Below, piece after piece: positions 16,354-53,761 of a DNA stretch of 64,000 nt. Each line of letters starts with the position of its first letter. Positions within the stretch are counted from its first letter, which is position 1. Source of the stretch: a phage; sequence record PZ445487.1; one strand, given 5' to 3'. Position numbers and translations under genes: made by a program. The notes below the pieces were generated by a model. That model did no database searches. It saw nothing but the letters and a program-made list of their open reading frames with translations, and was not told the origin of the DNA.

Positions 16354-16809
16354 ATGAGCGAAACAAAACTTGAAACGATGAAAACCGAAGATATAATGGC
16401 AGAATTGGAACCTCTTATTTCGGTAAATCCTGAAGACATGAACTTAGACCAAATGTCATTGAAAATTGGTCGTTCGTGGATGACTGTGCAACGCCATTAT
16501 ATTCGTGAAGGAAGATATCTGGAGTATCTAACTGGCAAATTCCGCCAAATAGATCTCTATTTACGCCGATTTTATGCAGGGGAATTGCCGCCCAACGTTT
16601 ATGTTGAACGCCCATTAAAAGTTCGACCCCTGAAATCTGATATAGATGTATGGGTAAAAGCAGATGATGATTATATCGAATTGTCTAGCATGCTTCAAGA
16701 GCAGAAAGCCAAAGTCAAGTTCATCGAAAGTTGCTTAGATCGTTTGAACAAACTCGGATATGAAGTGAAGAATGCTATTGATTGGCGAAAATATTTGGAT
16801 GGGATGTAA
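16354..16809 (+). CDS. Hypothetical protein (151 aa)
   Basis: ORF preceded by aggg...aaatcATG. Confidence 0.45.
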   Translation: MSETKLETMKTEDIMAELEPLISVNPEDMNLDQMSLKIGRSWMTVQRHYIREGRYLEYLTGKFRQIDLYLRRFYAGELPPNVYVERPLKVRPLKSDIDVWVKADDDYIELSSMLQEQKAKVKFIESCLDRLNKLGYEVKNAIDWRKYLDGM

Positions 16810-17555
16810 TGGTTTCTCTACAGGCTTTGCGCAAACTTAATGACTTTGAAAATCGTCATCATACATTTCAGCAATATTCCTTGCCGTTTAAGGAACTGAC
16901 TTGCGTAACTACCGAAAATGGTCGTCACTATGTTTCCCCCACTGGAGTCAAACTAACTTCAGTGACGACCATGTTAGGGCGTACTGGTGACCACACATGG
17001 TTAGAAGCCTGGCGGGACAAGTTGGGGCATGAAGCTGCTGATATAGAAACACATCGTTGCGCAGACCGTGGGGAAAAACTTCATTTGGCTTGTGAGTTGT
17101 ATCTCAAAAACAGACCAATGAAGGAAGTTCTGGAAGCTGCAGGGGAATACGTGTTTATGTTCAAACAGGTTTTCCCCTACCTTAACAAAATGAGCAAGAT
17201 ATATGCACAAGAGATTCCATTATATAGCGAAGTCCTGGGTCTTGCTGGTCGTGTTGACCTCATCGGGGTTTACGAAGGAATTCCAAGCATAATCGATTTC
17301 AAAACATCTAACACCCTAAAAACTCGAAGCATGATAGAAGATTATAGTATTCAATTGTGTCTATACTCAGTCATGTTTCAACAAATGTTTAATGTCAAGA
17401 TAGAGCGTTTAATCAATATTATATCCAACGAAAATGCCCTTGTTCCCACCATAATCGAATTCGATCGCAAAGACGTTATTTCTAAAATGTTTGACCGTGT
17501 CCGTCTGTATCACAAAATGGACAAAGAACAGAAAGGAATCTGGGCGGATCGCTAA
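16809..17555 (+). CDS. Putative PD-(D/E)xK family nuclease
   Basis: GRVDLIG ... IIDFKTSN fits the D...(D/E)xK core of RecB/Cas4/lambda-exonuclease-type nucleases; ATG overlaps the preceding stop. Confidence 0.45.
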   Translation: MVSLQALRKLNDFENRHHTFQQYSLPFKELTCVTTENGRHYVSPTGVKLTSVTTMLGRTGDHTWLEAWRDKLGHEAADIETHRCADRGEKLHLACELYLKNRPMKEVLEAAGEYVFMFKQVFPYLNKMSKIYAQEIPLYSEVLGLAGRVDLIGVYEGIPSIIDFKTSNTLKTRSMIEDYSIQLCLYSVMFQQMFNVKIERLINIISNENALVPTIIEFDRKDVISKMFDRVRLYHKMDKEQKGIWADR

Positions 17556-17584: not shown

Positions 17585-19084
17585 ATGTCTGAGATCCAAA
17601 TAGTCAAAGTGAACGAAGTTAGAATGCGGATCCTTGCCGAGGATTATATCCGTGAAGAACTCAACGATTACTTCAAATTTGAAGATCCTAATTTCCAACC
17701 GAATCCGTTCAGTAAATGGGACGGCGTAGTGCGGTTGTTCACAAAGAGTTCTGGGCTTATCGACATCGGCCTGTTATTTGAGGTGTTCAAATTCTGTAAG
17801 ATGAACGGTTACACCATCAAATTAGATCCGGCCTTAAAATATATTCAAGATATTCCGGATGAAGAAATTCATGCGTTCATCGATACATTGAATGCGGTGT
17901 ACCGAGACGAAAACAAACAATATCAAAAAGCGATTGTCCGCGATTATCAATTTGATTCCGTTACCACAGCAATACGCCAAAGCAGATGTGTCCTCGAAGC
18001 TGCCACGAGTGCTGGCAAATCCTTTATTTTGTACATCATGGCGCGTTACTACAGGCAACGCAGAGATGCCATCGAAAGTAATCTGAGGACGTTAATCGTT
18101 GTACCATCCATTCATTTGGTGACTCAGTTGTATGACAACTTCGAAGAATATAGCCACGGGACAGAATGGAAACCATTGATGAATGTCCAGACAATATACG
18201 AAGGGGCAACGAAAGAGATTTTCAAACCCATAGTTATTTCAACTTGGCAAGGTATCCAGAACCAACCCAAAGAGTGGTTCCATCAATTTGGAGATATCGT
18301 CGTCGACGAAGTACATACATCAAAATCAGATAAATTGTCTTACATCTTGAATAACTGTATTAACGCTGATCAACGTTTGGGAGTAACCGGAACCCTGGCG
18401 AATACAAAGGTCGCAGGGTTACAAGTCGTTGCTCACTTTGGCGCATATCATAAAATTATTACAGCGCGCGATTTAATCGATCTAGGATATGCGGCAGACA
18501 TCAATGTTAATATGATTGAAGTCATACATCCTATGGCAGACTGTATTGAAATGCACGGTGCTGAGTATCAAAAGGAAATAGAATTTCTCATTGCTAACGA
18601 ACGCCGCAATGAATTGATAGCCCGAATGGCTCTGTCTTTGAAAGGGAACGTGGCGGTCATGTTCGAACGTATCGATGCACACATGATGTTGGTTTATGAA
18701 ATGCTATCGGCAGTCAAGAAAAACGTATTCGTCATCAACGGGGAAGTCAAGACAGAAGTTCGTAAACAGATTCAGGCTGCTATGGAAGAAGGGGAAGATA
18801 TAACACTGTTGGCATCATATGGTACTATGCAACAGGGCGTATCTATCAAAAAACTCCATCATCTGATATTGGCCCATCCCAGCAAATCTTATATCCGTGT
18901 TATACAGACATTGGGGCGTTTGATGCGTCAGCATTCCTCTAAGGATGTTGCGCGAATCTGGGACCTGGTAGACAACCTGCGCTACAACGGTTCCTACAAC
19001 CATGCTCTCAGGCATTCTCATGAGAGATATAAATTTTATCTTATGGAGCGCCACCCTGTTAAAATGAAAAAAGTGGCGCTCTAA
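17585..19084 (+). CDS. uvsW: UvsW-like SF2 DNA/RNA helicase
   Basis: Walker A ATSAGKS, DEVH box IVVDEVHT, motifs TGTL and QTLGRLMR; about 500 aa, similar in length and motif order to T4 UvsW. Confidence 0.85.
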   Translation: MSEIQIVKVNEVRMRILAEDYIREELNDYFKFEDPNFQPNPFSKWDGVVRLFTKSSGLIDIGLLFEVFKFCKMNGYTIKLDPALKYIQDIPDEEIHAFIDTLNAVYRDENKQYQKAIVRDYQFDSVTTAIRQSRCVLEAATSAGKSFILYIMARYYRQRRDAIESNLRTLIVVPSIHLVTQLYDNFEEYSHGTEWKPLMNVQTIYEGATKEIFKPIVISTWQGIQNQPKEWFHQFGDIVVDEVHTSKSDKLSYILNNCINADQRLGVTGTLANTKVAGLQVVAHFGAYHKIITARDLIDLGYAADINVNMIEVIHPMADCIEMHGAEYQKEIEFLIANERRNELIARMALSLKGNVAVMFERIDAHMMLVYEMLSAVKKNVFVINGEVKTEVRKQIQAAMEEGEDITLLASYGTMQQGVSIKKLHHLILAHPSKSYIRVIQTLGRLMRQHSSKDVARIWDLVDNLRYNGSYNHALRHSHERYKFYLMERHPVKMKKVAL

Positions 19085-19089
19085 CCATT

Positions 19090-19455
19090 TCAAATATCTT
19101 GATTCACATAGGCGGGGGTTGCCTCGCCTTCTTTGTTGGAACCAAATAAACAGTCGATCGTGCCAATACATTGTTGTAGCACTTTCGGCTCAAGAATCTG
19201 AGAAAACAATTCTTCATTGGATGCCAGCAATGGAACAACTTTCACTTCCCGCGCCTGGCCTTGTTGAATAATGCCAACATATAGACCTTTGTTATTTGGG
19301 AGTAATGGTATCACCAACATCGGTGACACAATAAACCCCGATGTACAGAAAAGGCTTTGTAAATAAACGCCTTTAAATGACGGACGTTGTTCTGCTATGG
19401 AAAGAATTACTTCTTGGTCTTCCCCTACTGCGTATAAACCAACAAATTGCTTCAT
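19090..19455 (-). CDS. Hypothetical protein (121 aa), opposite strand
   Basis: Only ORF in an otherwise non-coding 700-bp stretch after uvsW; weak SD (gaga); could be spurious. Confidence 0.3.
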   Translation of the reverse strand: MKQFVGLYAVGEDQEVILSIAEQRPSFKGVYLQSLFCTSGFIVSPMLVIPLLPNNKGLYVGIIQQGQAREVKVVPLLASNEELFSQILEPKVLQQCIGTIDCLFGSNKEGEATPAYVNQDI

Positions 19456-19794
19456 ATATTATTTCTCACGTGTTAGCAAACTTGACTACATAATAATGTC
19501 ATGCTCTGTTTAGACCAAATAAAATATTTTACTTGTTGAATAAAAATCGCTTTCTTGTTGAACAATCCGTGCGTAATATACGAGTTGTGAGCTTTGCGAG
19601 CAACGAGTATTATCACGAGCGAAGCGAGTAGACTGATAAAGAAAGGTTTTATTAAAACAGAATATTATAAATGCCGTCAGGCATTTATTTATCGCGCGTA
19701 GGGCAATTTATCACTTGTTCTATAACTACAAACACGCGATACTAATTTGCGTCAAATATGACTTGAACCCCACTATATTTTGAGGATACAACTA
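19456..19794. other. Long AT-rich non-coding region with short repeats upstream of gene 45
   Basis: About 340 bp without an ORF; direct repeats cttgttgaa (x2) and cgagc(a)acgag / cgagcgaagcgag; hairpin aaatgccgtcaggcattt next to tataaat. Confidence 0.4.
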
Positions 19795-41340: not shown

Positions 41341-41868
41341 ATGATTGAAATATACACTGACGGGGCATCGTCCCCTCAGAAGACACGAGCCGCTGGTTGG
41401 GCATTTGCCATCAGTCCAATCACTGGAGAGCAATGGAAAGTGTTTTATGGGTATTTACCCCCGCCGTCAACGAACAATATAGCTGAGTTACTCGGGGTTA
41501 TAAACGCAATGAAGATCCTATGGAAATTCTCTAATTGCGGTGAACGCTGCATTCCCCCAGCCCGCATTATATCCGACAGCCAATATGTTATCAATAGCGT
41601 TTTGGAGTGGCGTCGTAAATGGGAATATGAAGGAATGCCGCCTAAGAACACAGAACTTCTGCTCGAGTTGTTCGATTATTATGACAAAGTTTGTTCAATT
41701 TGTGAACTTGAATTAAAATGGGTGAAAGGTCATGCAGGAACGATGGGCAACGAAATTGCGGATCAGTGGAGCGTTAGAGCCAAAGAAGATAGTTCAATGG
41801 TTCTTGAAAATAACCGTTTCTCGGTCAAGAAAGTCGTTGGTTCTTTCAATGAATTCATTGGTATTTGA
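41341..41868 (+). CDS. Ribonuclease HI
   Basis: IEIYTDGAS...TNNIAEL...SDSQYVINSV...WVKGHAGTMGNEIAD follows the E. coli RNase HI catalytic blocks (D, E, D, H, D). Confidence 0.8.
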   Translation: MIEIYTDGASSPQKTRAAGWAFAISPITGEQWKVFYGYLPPPSTNNIAELLGVINAMKILWKFSNCGERCIPPARIISDSQYVINSVLEWRRKWEYEGMPPKNTELLLELFDYYDKVCSICELELKWVKGHAGTMGNEIADQWSVRAKEDSSMVLENNRFSVKKVVGSFNEFIGI

Positions 41869-51606: not shown

Positions 51607-51619
51607 TTATAAAATACAA

Positions 51620-51646
51620 TCCCCCTAAATACAGGGGGATTTTCTT
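51620..51646 (+). terminator. Terminator hairpin with CTAAATA in its loop
   Basis: tccccct-aaatac-aggggga followed by ttttcttttt. Confidence 0.5.
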
Positions 51647-52079: not shown

Positions 52080-52697
52080 ATGGGCAAAATCTTTATACCT
52101 TCTCACTCAGAAGGTTGTCAAATCGCTGCAAAATTTCTACACAAACAAATGAATTGTGGTGCTGTGTTCGTAGAACCAAATTCATTCGATAATCGTGAAT
52201 CCCCTGACGCCATCGGGTTCAGACCTGGGGGTTGTTCTATATTAATGGAAGTTAAAGTCTCCCGCGCCGACTTCCTGACAGACAAAAAGAAACCTCATCG
52301 CATGAATCCTTCCATAGGCATGGGAGCATATCGTTTCTATGTTTGCCCAGCAGATGTTATTAAAATTGAAGACCTCCCTCCCAAATGGGGTTTGTTGTAC
52401 TTCACCCCTAGAAAATCTTTGAAGCCCGTTCACGTTCCGAATATGCAATATTCCTCTTTGTCTTCACCGGAACATTATGCATCATATTTGTCTAAATCTT
52501 TGGGCAAAAGAAGTCCTACAGATATCCCTCCTTATCTATTAGGGTACAAACAGATGCTGGAAGAATTTGCCCACTTTGATCGCAATCAGGTTGCGGAACA
52601 AAATATTCTGTATGGGGCTTGGCGACAGCTTTGCATAGCTCAAAGTCGCGGGGTGGATTATAATGTGACAGAAGTGTTCCAGAGGCCAAATATCTAA
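52080..52697 (+). CDS. Hypothetical protein, possible PD-(D/E)xK nuclease fold
   Basis: DAIGFRPGGCSILMEVKVS fits a D...(I/L)xEVK core; otherwise unassigned. Confidence 0.4.
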   Translation: MGKIFIPSHSEGCQIAAKFLHKQMNCGAVFVEPNSFDNRESPDAIGFRPGGCSILMEVKVSRADFLTDKKKPHRMNPSIGMGAYRFYVCPADVIKIEDLPPKWGLLYFTPRKSLKPVHVPNMQYSSLSSPEHYASYLSKSLGKRSPTDIPPYLLGYKQMLEEFAHFDRNQVAEQNILYGAWRQLCIAQSRGVDYNVTEVFQRPNI

Positions 52698-53761
52698 TGA
52701 AATTCTTGGACGAACAATACATCAATTTTCTCGCCCCCCGACTTGATAAATTCAGTTGGGAACGTGTTGGCGCTGTCGCCAAATTTCGTTGCCCATTATG
52801 TGGGGATTCTAAGAAGAGTGCCAACAAGCGTCGTGGTCACTTCTTTTATGATCGTGATGACGATGTGTTTCGTTTCAAGTGCCACAACTGTAATGAAATG
52901 AGCGGTTGGGCGTTTGAATTCTGGTTGAAGAAGTTTGACGAGCGTCTGTATAATGAATACAACCTTGAAAAATTCAGAATCATGGGGGATACCAGTTCCC
53001 GCCCGTTACAAAAACTCAAACCACTACAGCGCCTGACCCAGACAGCACGTATCGGTTCTCAGGTCGCCAAACGGGATGAAGAGCACCTTGGGAATATGAT
53101 ACGCCTTGATCTTCTTGACCGTGATCATATCGCCCGTCGTTATGTTGAAGGCAGGGGAATGCCGGAGAGCACGTTATCTTTGTTGTATTACAGCAGGAAT
53201 TTTCGTCAAGATCTTCTGAGTTTCGAAACGGATGTTGAGAAGCAGAAGAAGATACCCGAAGATGAGCGGCTGGTAATCCCATTCTGGACCCAAGACGGGC
53301 GCATGAAGATAGTTCAGGGGCGCGCATTCGGCGATAACCTTCCTGATGGGGTATTACGGTATGCCACTGTCAAGCCTAAGAACGAAGATACTAAGATCTA
53401 CGGGGAAGAGCGCATCATTTGGAACAAAACAAAGTTGGTAGTAGAAGGTCCAATTGATAGCTTGTTTCTACCCAATTGTCTTGCGACTGCCGATGCCGAC
53501 TTATTAAGTGCTAAGGGAGACATCTATATCCCCGATAACCAATACAGGAACAAACAAGTTTGTGACGGTATACAGAAGATGATAGACAGCGGAGTCAAAG
53601 TCGTTCTGTTTCCACCGGAAATACCGTGGAAGGATATCAATGATATGGTTCGCCCCGACAAGGGAAATATCCCGATACGGGATCTGCTTCAGATCATAGC
53701 CAAGAACGTATATCAGGGACTGTCGGCGTCCTTACGATTTTCTGACTTGAGGAAGATATGA
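52697..53761 (+). CDS. 61: DNA primase (gp61-like)
   Basis: Zinc ribbon FRCPLCGDSKKS...KCHNCN; blocks PESTLSLLYY, ERLVIPFW, KIYGEERI and VVEGPIDSLFLPN parallel T4 gp61; C-terminal ...QGLSASLRFSDLRKI resembles the T4 end. Confidence 0.85.
   Translation: MKFLDEQYINFLAPRLDKFSWERVGAVAKFRCPLCGDSKKSANKRRGHFFYDRDDDVFRFKCHNCNEMSGWAFEFWLKKFDERLYNEYNLEKFRIMGDTSSRPLQKLKPLQRLTQTARIGSQVAKRDEEHLGNMIRLDLLDRDHIARRYVEGRGMPESTLSLLYYSRNFRQDLLSFETDVEKQKKIPEDERLVIPFWTQDGRMKIVQGRAFGDNLPDGVLRYATVKPKNEDTKIYGEERIIWNKTKLVVEGPIDSLFLPNCLATADADLLSAKGDIYIPDNQYRNKQVCDGIQKMIDSGVKVVLFPPEIPWKDINDMVRPDKGNIPIRDLLQIIAKNVYQGLSASLRFSDLRKI

What the first reader, a model, noticed from the sequence alone, without database searches (positions are those of the whole stretch)
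16809..17555. PD-(D/E)xK nuclease candidate upstream of uvsW, and a second one at 52080..52697
Two unrelated ORFs carry D...(D/E)xK-like cores. Nucleases adjacent to recombination helicases often act in recombination-dependent replication or host DNA degradation.
Basis: partly seen in the sequence, partly recalled or inferred. Interest (0 to 1): 0.35.

Follow-up and report, generated by a model that had tools for sequence, protein, structure and literature searches.

The report
Two real phage PD-(D/E)xK nucleases
Both flagged genes of phage Cba120 are genuine DNA-cutting enzymes of the restriction-endonuclease-like fold: one is the phage counterpart of the human mitochondrial exonuclease MGME1 and is already annotated as an exonuclease, and the other is an unannotated, divergent relative of the bacterial MmcB DNA-repair nuclease that always sits next to the primase gene, so the result is solid but mostly ordinary.

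Summary
The window is Escherichia phage Cba120 (Kuttervirus), at 100% identity.

**ORF1 (16809-17555, orf167, annotated "exonuclease")**
- It passes the Pfam PDDEXK_1 cutoff.
- Its family profile hits human MGME1 at E=2e-18.
- A confident AF2 model (pLDDT 93) superposes on MGME1 with TM 0.70/0.77 and rmsd 2.0 Å.
- MGME1's catalytic residues H180/E223/D238/D251/K253 map to invariant H92/E135/D150/D163/K165, with identical spacing.
- It overlaps uvsY in a TAATG stop/start and precedes uvsW.
- The MGME1-phage link was published in 2013.

**ORF2 (52080-52697, orf107, "hypothetical")**
- It has no Pfam or NCBIfam hit.
- Its family keeps E32, P42-D43 and E57-x-K59 invariant.
- The AF2 model (pLDDT 91) has the α-β-β-β-α-β core.
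- Its only significant PDB match is 3dnx, an MmcB-like structure. It also matches phage proteins named MmcB-like.
- It overlaps the gp61 primase start, and this adjacency holds down to 39% identity.
- The family is very large (7,124 clusters) and lies just outside PF06319.

**Verdict**
- The fold prediction is right.
- The proposed roles are untested.
- This is a new member of a known kind.
- Interest is low to moderate.

The parts
16354..16809 (+). uvsY recombination mediator gene (Cba120 orf168). Its TAA stop overlaps the ORF1 ATG (TAATG).
   Evidence: Pfam UvsY E=5e-12 and phrog_231 E=5e-45. Junction sequence.
16809..17555 (+). ORF1 = Cba120 orf167/gp128, an MGME1/Ddk1-like PD-(D/E)XK exonuclease of 248 aa.
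   Evidence: PF12705 at 30 bits against a cutoff of 22. phrog_298 'exonuclease' E=1e-85. Family profile against human MGME1 E=2e-18. AF2 pLDDT 93.4. Foldseek MGME1 5zyu_A E=2.6e-13, TM 0.70/0.77, rmsd 2.0 Å.
17082..17366 (+). ORF1 active-site codons: H92 (17082), E135 (17211), D150 (17256), D163 (17295), K165 (17301), and Q182/Y186 (17352/17364).
   Evidence: All are invariant in the 29-sequence alignment A2. The spacing 43/15/13/2 is identical to MGME1 H180/E223/D238/D251/K253.
17585..19084 (+). uvsW helicase gene (orf165).
   Evidence: UvsW_N, ResIII and Helicase_C. RefSeq annotation.
19110..19129 (+). Terminator-like hairpin (8 pairs, 6 of them GC, followed by a T-rich tail) that closes the gp3-uvsY-ORF1-uvsW unit.
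   Evidence: Consensus scan only, not shown to function.
52080..52697 (+). ORF2 = Cba120 orf107/gp083, a divergent MmcB-like PD-(D/E)xK nuclease of 205 aa, annotated 'hypothetical protein'.
   Evidence: No Pfam or NCBIfam hit. phrog_631 E=5e-82 and phrog_5429 'DNA repair protein' E=1e-10. AF2 pLDDT 91.4. Foldseek 3dnx E=1.2e-4, probability 1.0. BFVD matches named MmcB-like, down to E=2.6e-8.
52173..52256 (+). ORF2 core-motif codons: E32 (52173), P42-D43 (52203-52208), E57 (52248), K59 (52254), followed by the S-R-A-D-F-x-x-D-x-x-K stretch.
   Evidence: Invariant in the 26-sequence alignment A1. D43 lies at the start of strand β2 and E57/K59 at the end of β3 in the model. The motif aligns to 3dnx residues 44-72.
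52697..53761 (+). gp61-type DNA primase gene (orf106). Its ATG overlaps the ORF2 TAA stop (TAATG).
   Evidence: phrog_47 DNA primase E=1e-78. Junction. The adjacency is conserved in L009, L011 and Vibrio phage D503.
41440..41868 (+). Context gene: a type-1 (RnhA-like) RNase H (orf121). It is the only RNase H or flap-type nuclease recognisable in the genome besides ORF1.
   Evidence: PF00075 E=4e-18. No FEN-type domain elsewhere.

Best explanation
Both ORFs encode active, metal-dependent PD-(D/E)xK nucleases that belong to two different families and serve the phage's DNA replication, recombination and repair machinery.

**ORF1.** ORF1 is the Kuttervirus member of the phage exonuclease family whose eukaryotic relative is mitochondrial MGME1/Ddk1.
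- Inferred from MGME1: it is a single-strand-specific, end-dependent exonuclease. It is expected to pass ssDNA under a helical arch and to use two metal ions held by H92, D150 and D163, with E135 and K165 assisting.
- Shown here: it is made from the same transcription unit as UvsY and UvsW, and its start overlaps the uvsY stop.
- Inferred role: it trims ssDNA flaps and 5' tails that arise during strand invasion, branch migration, annealing and strand-displacement synthesis. Because Cba120 has a type-1 RNase H but no FEN-type T4 RNase H, it may also remove Okazaki-primer flaps, as MGME1 does in mitochondria.

**ORF2.** ORF2 is an outlying member of the MmcB-like nuclease group.
- Its catalytic residues are D43, E57 and K59, probably with E32.
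- It has an Ackermannviridae-specific helical insertion at about residues 120-165.
- Shown here: its stop overlaps the primase start, and this pairing survives genome rearrangement.
- Inferred role: a DNA endonuclease that acts on damaged or branched replication intermediates, by analogy with MmcB, and is expressed together with the primase.

**How sure.** Fold and family assignment: about 0.9. ORF1 as an ssDNA exonuclease: about 0.7. A specific flap-trimming role for ORF1: about 0.4. A repair or fork-processing role for ORF2: about 0.3.
For: **ORF1**
- Pfam PDDEXK_1 is above its cutoff.
- 2,195 homologs were found, and nearly all of the 120 listed carry PF12705.
- H92, E96, E135, D150, D163, K165, Q182 and Y186 are invariant.
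- The family profile hits MGME1 at E=2e-18 over positions 42-233.
- The model has pLDDT 93. Foldseek ranks MGME1 first at E=2.6e-13, TM 0.70/0.77 and rmsd 2.0 Å, about eight orders of magnitude ahead of RecE and Cas4.
- The catalytic residues published for MGME1 (PMC6237815) map with identical spacing.
- Human MGME1 reciprocally finds 504 phage records of the same family.
- The uvsY-exo-uvsW order is kept in Aeromonas phage phiA8-29 and Vibrio phage D507.
- Elsewhere the gene clusters with gp33/gp59/gp32 or with primase/RNase H/SSB.
- Cba120 has a type-1 RNase H and no FEN domain.

**ORF2**
- The invariant PD...ExK motif holds across 26 sequences down to 35% identity.
- The model has pLDDT 91 and the αβββαβ order.
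- Sequence profile (E=8e-4) and structure (E=1.2e-4, probability 1.0) both point to 3dnx.
- BFVD matches to phage proteins named MmcB-like reach E=2.6e-8.
- Family member P0040 hits PF06319 at 21.6 bits against a cutoff of 22, over profile positions 14-122 of 148.
- The primase adjacency is conserved at 49%, 53% and 39% identity.
- MmcB is described as an SOS-induced PD-(D/E)XK endonuclease that protects against mitomycin C and cisplatin (PMC9578287).
Against: - No biochemical or genetic data exist for either Cba120 protein. All activities are inferred from homologs.
- Cba120 ORF1 alone matches MGME1 only weakly by sequence (phmmer E=0.02). The link needs the family profile or the structure.
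- The idea that ORF1 stands in for the T4 FEN-type RNase H is weakened. Cyanophage S-B68 and Stenotrophomonas phage YB07 carry both genes.
- Host Pol I could also process primers (general knowledge, not tested here).
- ORF2 hits neither the Pfam nor the NCBIfam MmcB models.
- The sequence match to 3dnx covers only 29 residues.
- The broader ORF2 family sits in varied contexts without a primase: the Stx-phage exo-xis region, a plasmid/ICE-like contig and others. The primase coupling may therefore be lineage-specific operon organisation rather than a functional partnership.
- Expression timing could not be inferred. σ70-like and T4-late promoter matches are at chance level.
Confidence: 0.8

Rival explanations
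1. ORF1 is the functional replacement for the FEN-type T4 RNase H. Together with the type-1 RNase H (orf121) it removes Okazaki primers by a mitochondria-like route: RNase H1 cuts first, and a flap exonuclease finishes. On this view its position by uvsY and uvsW is incidental.
For: - Cba120 lacks any 5_3_exonuc_N or RNaseH_C domain, while the T4 control is detected.
- orf121 is PF00075.
- In cyanophage S-BM3 the homolog lies in exo-gp33-gp59-...-gp32, where T4 has rnh-dsbA-33-59-segG-32.
- T4-type rnh is rare where the exonuclease is common: Synechococcus phages have 41 against 377 records.
- The mitochondrial pathway of RNase H1 followed by flap removal by MGME1, FEN1 and DNA2 is described in bioRxiv 10.1101/842617.
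Against: - S-B68 has both rnh and the exonuclease.
- YB07 has primase-RNase H-hyp-exonuclease in one cluster.
- Some jumbo phages also appear in both hit lists.
- Displacement is therefore not a general rule.
- Host Pol I 5'-exonuclease could do the job (general knowledge).
Confidence: 0.3
2. One or both nucleases degrade host DNA, which contains thymine, to supply nucleotides and shut the host off. Phage DNA would be spared because its thymidines are hypermodified (5-NeOmdU). This would parallel T4 endonucleases II and IV.
For: - Cba120 DNA carries 5-NeOmdU (PMC8989533).
- The genome paper raises the T4 analogy of selective host-DNA degradation (PMC3184105).
- No denA or denB homolog is annotated in the genome.
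Against: - Both families are abundant in phages and mobile elements that are not known to modify their DNA: cyanophages, pelagiphages, Stx lambdoid prophages and a plasmid-like contig.
- ORF1's closest characterised relative is an ssDNA-end exonuclease, not a dsDNA endonuclease (PMC6237815).
- Both genes sit in replication or recombination operons, not among host-shutoff genes.
Confidence: 0.1
3. ORF1 is a Cas4-type protein that interferes with or exploits host CRISPR adaptation, as proposed for Cas4-like genes of some Campylobacter phages.
For: Weak hits to Cas4 models: TIGR00372 E=1.4e-8, PADLOC Cas4 E=4e-9, phrog_1706 'CRISPR/Cas system associated' E=4e-10. Foldseek matches to Cas4 structures at about 1e-4.
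Against: - The TIGR00372 score is 34.8 bits against a cutoff of 65.
- No cysteine is conserved in the family, so there is no Fe-S cluster.
- MGME1 matches are about eight orders of magnitude better.
- The hits reflect the shared RecB-type core only.
Confidence: 0.03
4. ORF2 is a junction-resolving or other branched-DNA endonuclease that clears branches before packaging or at forks. T7 endonuclease I and archaeal Hjc, which also have the PD-(D/E)xK fold, are the models (from general knowledge). On this view it is not a lesion-repair enzyme.
For: - It has the PD-(D/E)xK fold with invariant basic residues R62, K71, R74 and R85.
- There are weak fold matches to NucS/EndoMS, VRR-NUC and T7-like endonuclease I.
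- It lies in a replication gene cluster.
Against: - Cba120 already encodes a RuvC-like resolvase (orf087; PF02075).
- Those fold matches are not significant (E>0.05).
- The significant matches are all MmcB-like.
Confidence: 0.15

Closest known systems
[quoted passage not shown]
   Same: - The same PD-(D/E)XK/PDDEXK_1 core.
- The same five catalytic residues with identical spacing.
- Near full-length superposition: TM 0.70/0.77 and rmsd 2.0 Å over 206 columns.
- No Fe-S cluster.
- A single-domain protein of about 220-250 aa.
- Phage relatives of MGME1 were already noted by Szczesny et al. 2013 (PMC3597694).
   Different: - Only about 20% identity.
- Cba120 ORF1 has an N-terminal extension of about 25 residues that is shared only with Ackermannviridae and Vibrio-phage members.
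- It is encoded in a phage recombination operon rather than a eukaryotic nucleus.
- Substrate preference, directionality and oligomeric state are untested.
T4-like cyanophage 'exonuclease' (gene cluster T4-GC0325) and the pelagiphage and jumbo-phage homologs, compared with ORF1
   Same: The same family: 30-35% identity and 996 phage records in all. Both sit among replication and recombination genes.
   Different: The neighbours differ. In cyanophages the order is PhoH-exo-gp33-gp59. In Ackermannviridae it is gp3-uvsY-exo-uvsW.
Cas4 / RecB / AddAB / RecE nuclease domains, compared with ORF1
   Same: The shared RecB-type motif set (E, D, D-x-K, Q-x-x-x-Y) and fold, with Foldseek E of about 1e-4 to 1e-5.
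   Different: There are no conserved cysteines and so no Fe-S cluster. The score is below the Cas4 model cutoff. TM-scores are much weaker (0.3-0.4) than for MGME1.
MmcB-like DNA repair nucleases (Pfam PF06319/DUF1052; PDB 3dnx SPO1766; Caulobacter MmcB), compared with ORF2
   Same: - The D...E-x-K-x-S-R-A-D-F-x-x-D-x-K motif.
- The same fold: Foldseek probability 1.0, TM 0.63 on the target.
- Phage proteins named MmcB-like are significant structural matches.
- A family member reaches 21.6 bits on PF06319 against a cutoff of 22.
   Different: - ORF2 itself hits neither the Pfam nor the NCBIfam model.
- After the motif it carries K-P-H-R...G-M-G-x-Y-R and W-G-L signatures.
- It has an insertion of about 40 residues that is absent from the 171-aa Stx-phage member.
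- It is phage-encoded and coupled to the primase, rather than SOS-regulated on a chromosome.
T4 RNase H (rnh; FEN family), compared with ORF1 by function only
   Same: A possible shared task: removing 5' flaps and primers on the lagging strand. The two genes occupy a similar position beside gp33/gp59/gp32 in cyanophages and in T4.
   Different: The fold is unrelated (PIN-like FEN against PD-(D/E)xK). Some phages carry both genes.

Membership tests
PD-(D/E)XK nuclease superfamily (ORF1) | Match to a superfamily profile above the curated cutoff | tested here: met
   PF12705 PDDEXK_1 at 30 bits against a cutoff of 22, E=6e-7.
PD-(D/E)XK nuclease superfamily (ORF1) | Conserved catalytic D ... (D/E)-x-K on the core β-strands | tested here: met
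   D150 and D163-x-K165 are invariant in 29 sequences. They lie on strands E145-155 and E158-167 of the model.
MGME1/Ddk1-like exonucleases (ORF1) | Catalytic set H, E, D, D, K equivalent to MGME1 H180/E223/D238/D251/K253 | tested here: met
   H92/E135/D150/D163/K165, with identical spacing of 43/15/13/2.
MGME1/Ddk1-like exonucleases (ORF1) | Full-length structural similarity to solved MGME1 | tested here: met
   Foldseek 5zyu_A E=2.6e-13, TMq 0.70, TMt 0.77, rmsd 2.0 Å over 206 columns. All of the top 9 hits are MGME1.
MGME1/Ddk1-like exonucleases (ORF1) | Reciprocal sequence relationship between MGME1 and the phage family | tested here: met
   The family profile hits MGME1 at E=2e-18. Human MGME1 by tblastn finds 504 phage records of the family. 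Cba120 ORF1 alone reaches only E=0.02.
MGME1/Ddk1-like exonucleases (ORF1) | Helical arch over the active site that admits only ssDNA | tested here: inconclusive
   The model has helices 63-72 and 74-99, the second carrying H92, at the place of MGME1 α2/α3. The arch geometry was not measured.
MGME1/Ddk1-like exonucleases (ORF1) | Metal-dependent ssDNA exonuclease activity that needs free ends | not testable with these tools
   Needs biochemistry.
Cas4 (ORF1) | Score above the TIGR00372 cutoff | tested here: not met
   34.8 bits against a cutoff of 65.
Cas4 (ORF1) | Four conserved cysteines that hold an Fe-S cluster | tested here: not met
   No cysteine column is conserved in A2. The ORF1 cysteines at 32, 84, 95 and 184 are not conserved.
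PD-(D/E)XK nuclease superfamily (ORF2) | αβββαβ core with D at the start of β2 and (D/E)-x-K on β3 | tested here: met
   The model (pLDDT 91.4) has H9-22, E28-31, E44-48, E52-58, H62-68 and E84-89, with D43, E57 and K59 in the expected places. These residues are invariant in 26 sequences.
MmcB-like (Pfam PF06319; NCBIfam MmcB family) (ORF2) | Match to the family HMM at or above the curated cutoff | tested here: not met
   No Pfam hit even at E<=10 and no NCBIfam hit. The best family member, P0040, scores 21.6 bits against a cutoff of 22.
MmcB-like (Pfam PF06319; NCBIfam MmcB family) (ORF2) | Structural similarity to the solved family member 3dnx | tested here: met
   Foldseek E=1.2e-4, probability 1.00, TMt 0.63. 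It is the only PDB hit below 1e-3. BFVD hits named MmcB-like reach E=2.6e-8.
MmcB-like (Pfam PF06319; NCBIfam MmcB family) (ORF2) | Shared extended motif D...E-x-K-x-S-R-A-D-F-x-x-D | tested here: met
   The profile aligns to 3dnx residues 44-72 at E=8e-4. The 3dnx motif used as a query retrieves ORF2 orthologs of Klebsiella Ackermannviridae.
MmcB-like (Pfam PF06319; NCBIfam MmcB family) (ORF2) | Role in tolerance of cross-linking damage, with SOS control | not testable with these tools
   Known only for Caulobacter MmcB (PMC9578287).
FEN / T4 RNase H family (any gene of Cba120) | 5_3_exonuc_N or RNaseH_C domain | tested here: not met
   Only the T4 control matched among 45 sequences. phmmer with T4 rnh found nothing in 44 unannotated CDSs or in any window ORF.

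The most novel reading that the evidence does not exclude
Ackermannviridae, and perhaps most T4-like cyanophages, mature their lagging strands by a mitochondria-type route. A type-1 RNase H removes most of the primer, and the MGME1-like exonuclease trims the displaced flap, in place of the FEN-type RNase H used by T4.

[quoted passage not shown] Its members would process stalled or damaged forks in mobile elements.
Probability: 0.25. Interest if true: 0.5.

Novelty: new member of a known kind. Interest (0 to 1): 0.3.

Why it matters
**ORF1.** It gives a precise and testable identity to a gene annotated only as "exonuclease". It is a phage MGME1 homolog in a genetically tractable coliphage. That could serve as a simple model for how MGME1-type enzymes work with a replisome and recombination proteins.

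**ORF2.** It assigns a fold, catalytic residues and a nearest family to a gene that nearly every record seen here labels "hypothetical protein". It also shows that this is a very large family missing from Pfam. [quoted passage not shown]

Neither result overturns current understanding.

Tried and rejected
- **'ORF1 displaces T4 rnh' as a general rule: rejected.** The gene order in S-BM3 and the absence of a FEN in Cba120 suggested it. But S-B68 and YB07 carry both genes. I keep it only as a lineage-specific possibility.
- **ORF1 as Cas4: rejected.** It scores below the model cutoff and has no conserved cysteines.
- **ORF1 and ORF2 as paralogs: rejected.** hhalign probability is 1.4%.
- **The 168-aa hypothetical between RNase H and the exonuclease in YB07 as an ORF2 relative: rejected.** hhalign probability is 1.3%.
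- **Expression timing from promoters: no result.** σ70-like matches are at chance level (13 found against 10.7 expected, and 6 against 6.9). There is only one T4-late TATAAATA in 64 kb against 1.9 expected.
- **Defence-system membership: none for ORF2.** ORF1 gives only weak Cas4 and DruK core hits.
- **Literature on MmcB/DUF1052 in phages, on Ackermannviridae transcriptomics and on exo-xis nucleases: nothing specific**.
- **A whole-genome tblastn for rnh failed** because accession-fetched loci were not visible to the script. I replaced it with the alignment workaround.
- **Rfam scan of the unannotated gap after uvsW: no hit**.
Full report
**Source and coordinates**

The window is the reverse strand of Escherichia phage Cba120. 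This is a Kuttervirus of the Ackermannviridae, a ViI-like, T4-related myovirus. Identity is 100% over both regions tested.

ORF1 (16809-17555, + strand, 248 aa) is Cba120 orf167/gp128. It is annotated "putative exonuclease" or "exonuclease". ORF2 (52080-52697, + strand, 205 aa) is orf107/gp083. Nearly every record I saw annotates it "hypothetical protein".

**Is the observation more than chance?**

It occurs in 45 of 65 long plus-strand ORFs of the window. It also occurs in 81% and 55% of residue shuffles of ORF1 and ORF2. The picks are nevertheless correct, and independent evidence shows this.

**ORF1: identity**

- It passes the curated cutoff of Pfam PDDEXK_1 (30 bits against 22) and hits phrog_298 "exonuclease" at E=1e-85.
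- It has 2,195 detectable homologs. Nearly all of the 120 listed carry PF12705.
- In a 29-sequence alignment reaching 33% identity, the RecB-type motif set is invariant: H92, E96, E135, D150, D163-x-K165 and Q182...Y186. No cysteine is conserved.
- A profile of this alignment matches human MGME1 at E=2e-18 over almost its whole length.
- The AlphaFold2 model is confident (pLDDT 93.4, pTM 0.89).
- Foldseek places nine MGME1 chains on top. The best has E=2.6e-13, TM 0.70/0.77 and rmsd 2.0 Å over 206 columns. RecE, Cas4, ACE1, Exo5, Dna2 and AddAB follow at about 1e-4 to 1e-5.
- The MGME1 residues shown by mutagenesis to matter are H180, E223, D238 and D251, together with K253 of the D-x-K motif (PMC6237815). 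They align to ORF1 H92, E135, D150, D163 and K165 with identical spacing, 43/15/13/2.
- In the reverse direction, human MGME1 used as a tblastn query finds 504 phage records. These are cyanophage "exonuclease" genes, pelagiphages and Stenotrophomonas phage YB07, at 26-31% identity and near full length. They are the same genes that ORF1 finds.

ORF1 is therefore the Kuttervirus member of the phage MGME1/Ddk1-like exonuclease family. This relationship is not new. Szczesny et al. 2013 reported that Ddk1-like nucleases group with exonucleases of Caudovirales that infect cyanobacteria and proteobacteria, and they proposed a phage origin (PMC3597694). Cas4 membership is rejected: 34.8 bits against a cutoff of 65, and no Fe-S cysteines.

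**ORF1: context and likely role**

The uvsY stop and the ORF1 start overlap (TAATG). uvsW follows after 29 bases, and a strong terminator-like hairpin follows uvsW. The uvsY-exo-uvsW order is kept in Aeromonas phage phiA8-29 and, as hyp-exo-helicase, in Vibrio phage D507.

In cyanophage S-BM3 the homolog lies in PhoH-exo-gp33-gp59-...-gp32. In YB07 it lies in primase-RNase H-hyp-exo-...-SSB. The constant feature is association with recombination and lagging-strand genes.

Cba120 encodes gp46/gp47, a RuvC-like resolvase, UvsX and a type-1 RNase H (PF00075). It has no FEN-type T4 RNase H. Among 44 unannotated CDSs and all window ORFs, only the T4 control matched 5_3_exonuc_N or RNaseH_C.

In mitochondria RNase H1 removes most of the primer. 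MGME1, FEN1 and DNA2 then remove the displaced flap (bioRxiv 10.1101/842617). ORF1 could act in the same way here. I do not claim a general displacement of rnh, because S-B68 and YB07 carry both genes.

The best-supported mechanism, inferred from MGME1, is end-dependent degradation of ssDNA tails and flaps generated during UvsX/UvsY strand invasion, UvsW branch migration and strand-displacement synthesis.

**ORF2: identity**

ORF2 has no Pfam or NCBIfam hit even at E<=10. It hits phrog_631 (unknown function, E=5e-82) and, more weakly, phrog_5429 "DNA repair protein".

An alignment of 26 homologs down to 35% identity shows these invariant residues: H9, E32, E40, P42-D43, E57-x-K59, R62, D64, D68, K71, R74, G80, G82, R85, W103-G104-L105 and E173.

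The AlphaFold2 model (pLDDT 91.4, pTM 0.88) has the α-β-β-β-α-β order. D43 opens β2, and E57/K59 close β3.

Evidence for the MmcB link:
- The only significant PDB hit is 3dnx (SPO1766), the solved MmcB-like/DUF1052 protein. The sequence profile gives E=8e-4 on the shared D...E-x-K-S-R-A-D-F-x-x-D motif. Structure gives E=1.2e-4, probability 1.0 and TM 0.63.
- The non-significant tail of that search is dominated by PD-(D/E)xK proteins: Cas4, NucS, McrC, Exo5, BamHI and VRR-NUC.
- In the viral structure library, 18 matches are below 1e-3. Several are named MmcB-like or MmcB family DNA repair protein. The best named one has E=2.6e-8, TM about 0.6 and rmsd 2.3 Å.
- Family member P0040 hits PF06319 over profile positions 14-122 of 148 at 21.6 bits against a cutoff of 22.
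- The 3dnx motif used as a query retrieves ORF2 orthologs of Klebsiella Ackermannviridae. One of those records is already labelled "DNA repair protein".

ORF2 is thus a genuine PD-(D/E)xK nuclease of an outlying sister group of MmcB-like proteins. It fails the formal HMM membership test and passes the structural and motif tests.

The group is very large. There are 7,124 representative clusters at E<=1e-3 and 1,213 at E<=1e-30. None of ten sampled representatives hit a nuclease Pfam model.

**ORF2: context and likely role**

The ORF2 stop overlaps the start of the gp61-type primase (TAATG). The adjacency is kept in three divergent relatives:
- a metagenomic relative at 49% identity, whose primase is 59% identical;
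- another at 53% identity, where a NUMOD3 homing-endonuclease gene has inserted between the two;
- Vibrio phage D503 at 39% identity, where the rest of the neighbourhood is rearranged.

More distant members lack a primase neighbour. A 171-aa full-length member (hhalign 99.9%) lies in the variable part of the exo-xis region of Stx2 phages, downstream of gam-bet-exo. Others lie in a plasmid/ICE-like contig and a phage-like contig. Compared with the Stx-phage member, Cba120 ORF2 carries an insertion of about 40 residues (roughly 120-165).

MmcB of Caulobacter is described as an SOS-induced PD-(D/E)XK endonuclease. It protects against mitomycin C and cisplatin, and is thought to act with translesion polymerases (PMC9578287). 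By analogy, I infer that ORF2 cuts damaged or branched replication intermediates and is co-expressed with the primase. This step is inference only.

**Alternatives**

Host-DNA degradation is conceivable, because Cba120 DNA carries 5-NeOmdU (PMC8989533). However, both families are common in phages and mobile elements that are not known to modify their DNA, and nothing found here supports it. A junction-resolvase role for ORF2 is possible but less likely, given the RuvC-like gene and the non-significant matches to resolvase-type folds.

**Verdict**

- The functional reading is only partly supported.
- ORF1 is already annotated, and its MGME1 kinship is published at family level.
- ORF2's assignment is new for this gene, but it is a new member of a known kind.
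- Interest is low to moderate, at 0.3.

Noticed in passing
window 41440-41868 (+); whole Cba120 genome: The annotated 'RNase H' (orf121) is a type-1, RnhA-like enzyme (PF00075). No FEN-type T4 RNase H domain was found in 44 unannotated CDSs or in any window ORF. Cba120 therefore pairs a type-1 RNase H with an MGME1-like exonuclease.
   Followed up: yes
L013:5992-6507 (Stx2-converting phage Stx2a_WGPS8, AP012540.1): A 171-aa full-length member of the ORF2 nuclease family (hhalign 99.9%) lies in the variable part of the exo-xis region of Shiga-toxin phages, downstream of gam-bet-exo. About 100 Stx-phage records carry it. The exo-xis papers I read do not describe it as a nuclease.
   Followed up: partly
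L011:5636-6415; also Salmonella phage allotria (hit H85): A NUMOD3-type homing-endonuclease gene is inserted exactly between the ORF2 homolog and the primase gene in some relatives.
   Followed up: no
OR844942.1 'Enterococcus phage Efm 3-10' (111 kb), positions 16798-17541: A record labelled as an Enterococcus phage carries ORF1 at 100% identity, and one Enterococcus-labelled record also matches the surrounding Kuttervirus DNA. It is probably a mislabelled or contaminated record.
   Followed up: no
window 19085-19794: An unannotated gap of about 700 bp lies between uvsW and the gp45 clamp gene. It holds a terminator-like hairpin (19110-19129) and a minus-strand ORF of 121 aa (19090-19455). There is no Rfam match.
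   Followed up: partly
window 51618-51641: A perfect hairpin of 9-10 bp reads as a terminator on both strands. It lies between orf109 and the DUF5856 gene (orf108) that precedes ORF2, and may mark the start of the orf108-ORF2-primase unit.
   Followed up: no
P0278 (428 aa) and P0267 (311 aa), from the representative search: The ORF2-type nuclease domain occurs fused to a TniB-like AAA+ ATPase and to DUF4326. This hints at roles in transposition-like or other mobile-element processes.
   Followed up: no
L018:8028-8717 (Synechococcus phage S-B68): The gene at the PhoH-exo-gp33 position, where the MGME1-like exonuclease lies in cyanophage S-BM3, is annotated 'exonuclease A, DexA'. This is probably a misnomer, because T4 DexA belongs to a different family (my own knowledge; the S-B68 protein itself was not compared here).
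   Followed up: no
Cba120 genome, 'hypothetical' CDSs scanned in alignment A3: 5-hmdU DNA kinase (HMUDK_hel) and amino-acid:DNA transferase (ADDT) domains appear among genes annotated as hypothetical. This fits the published 5-NeOmdU hypermodification of Cba120 DNA. I did not locate which CDSs they are.
   Followed up: no
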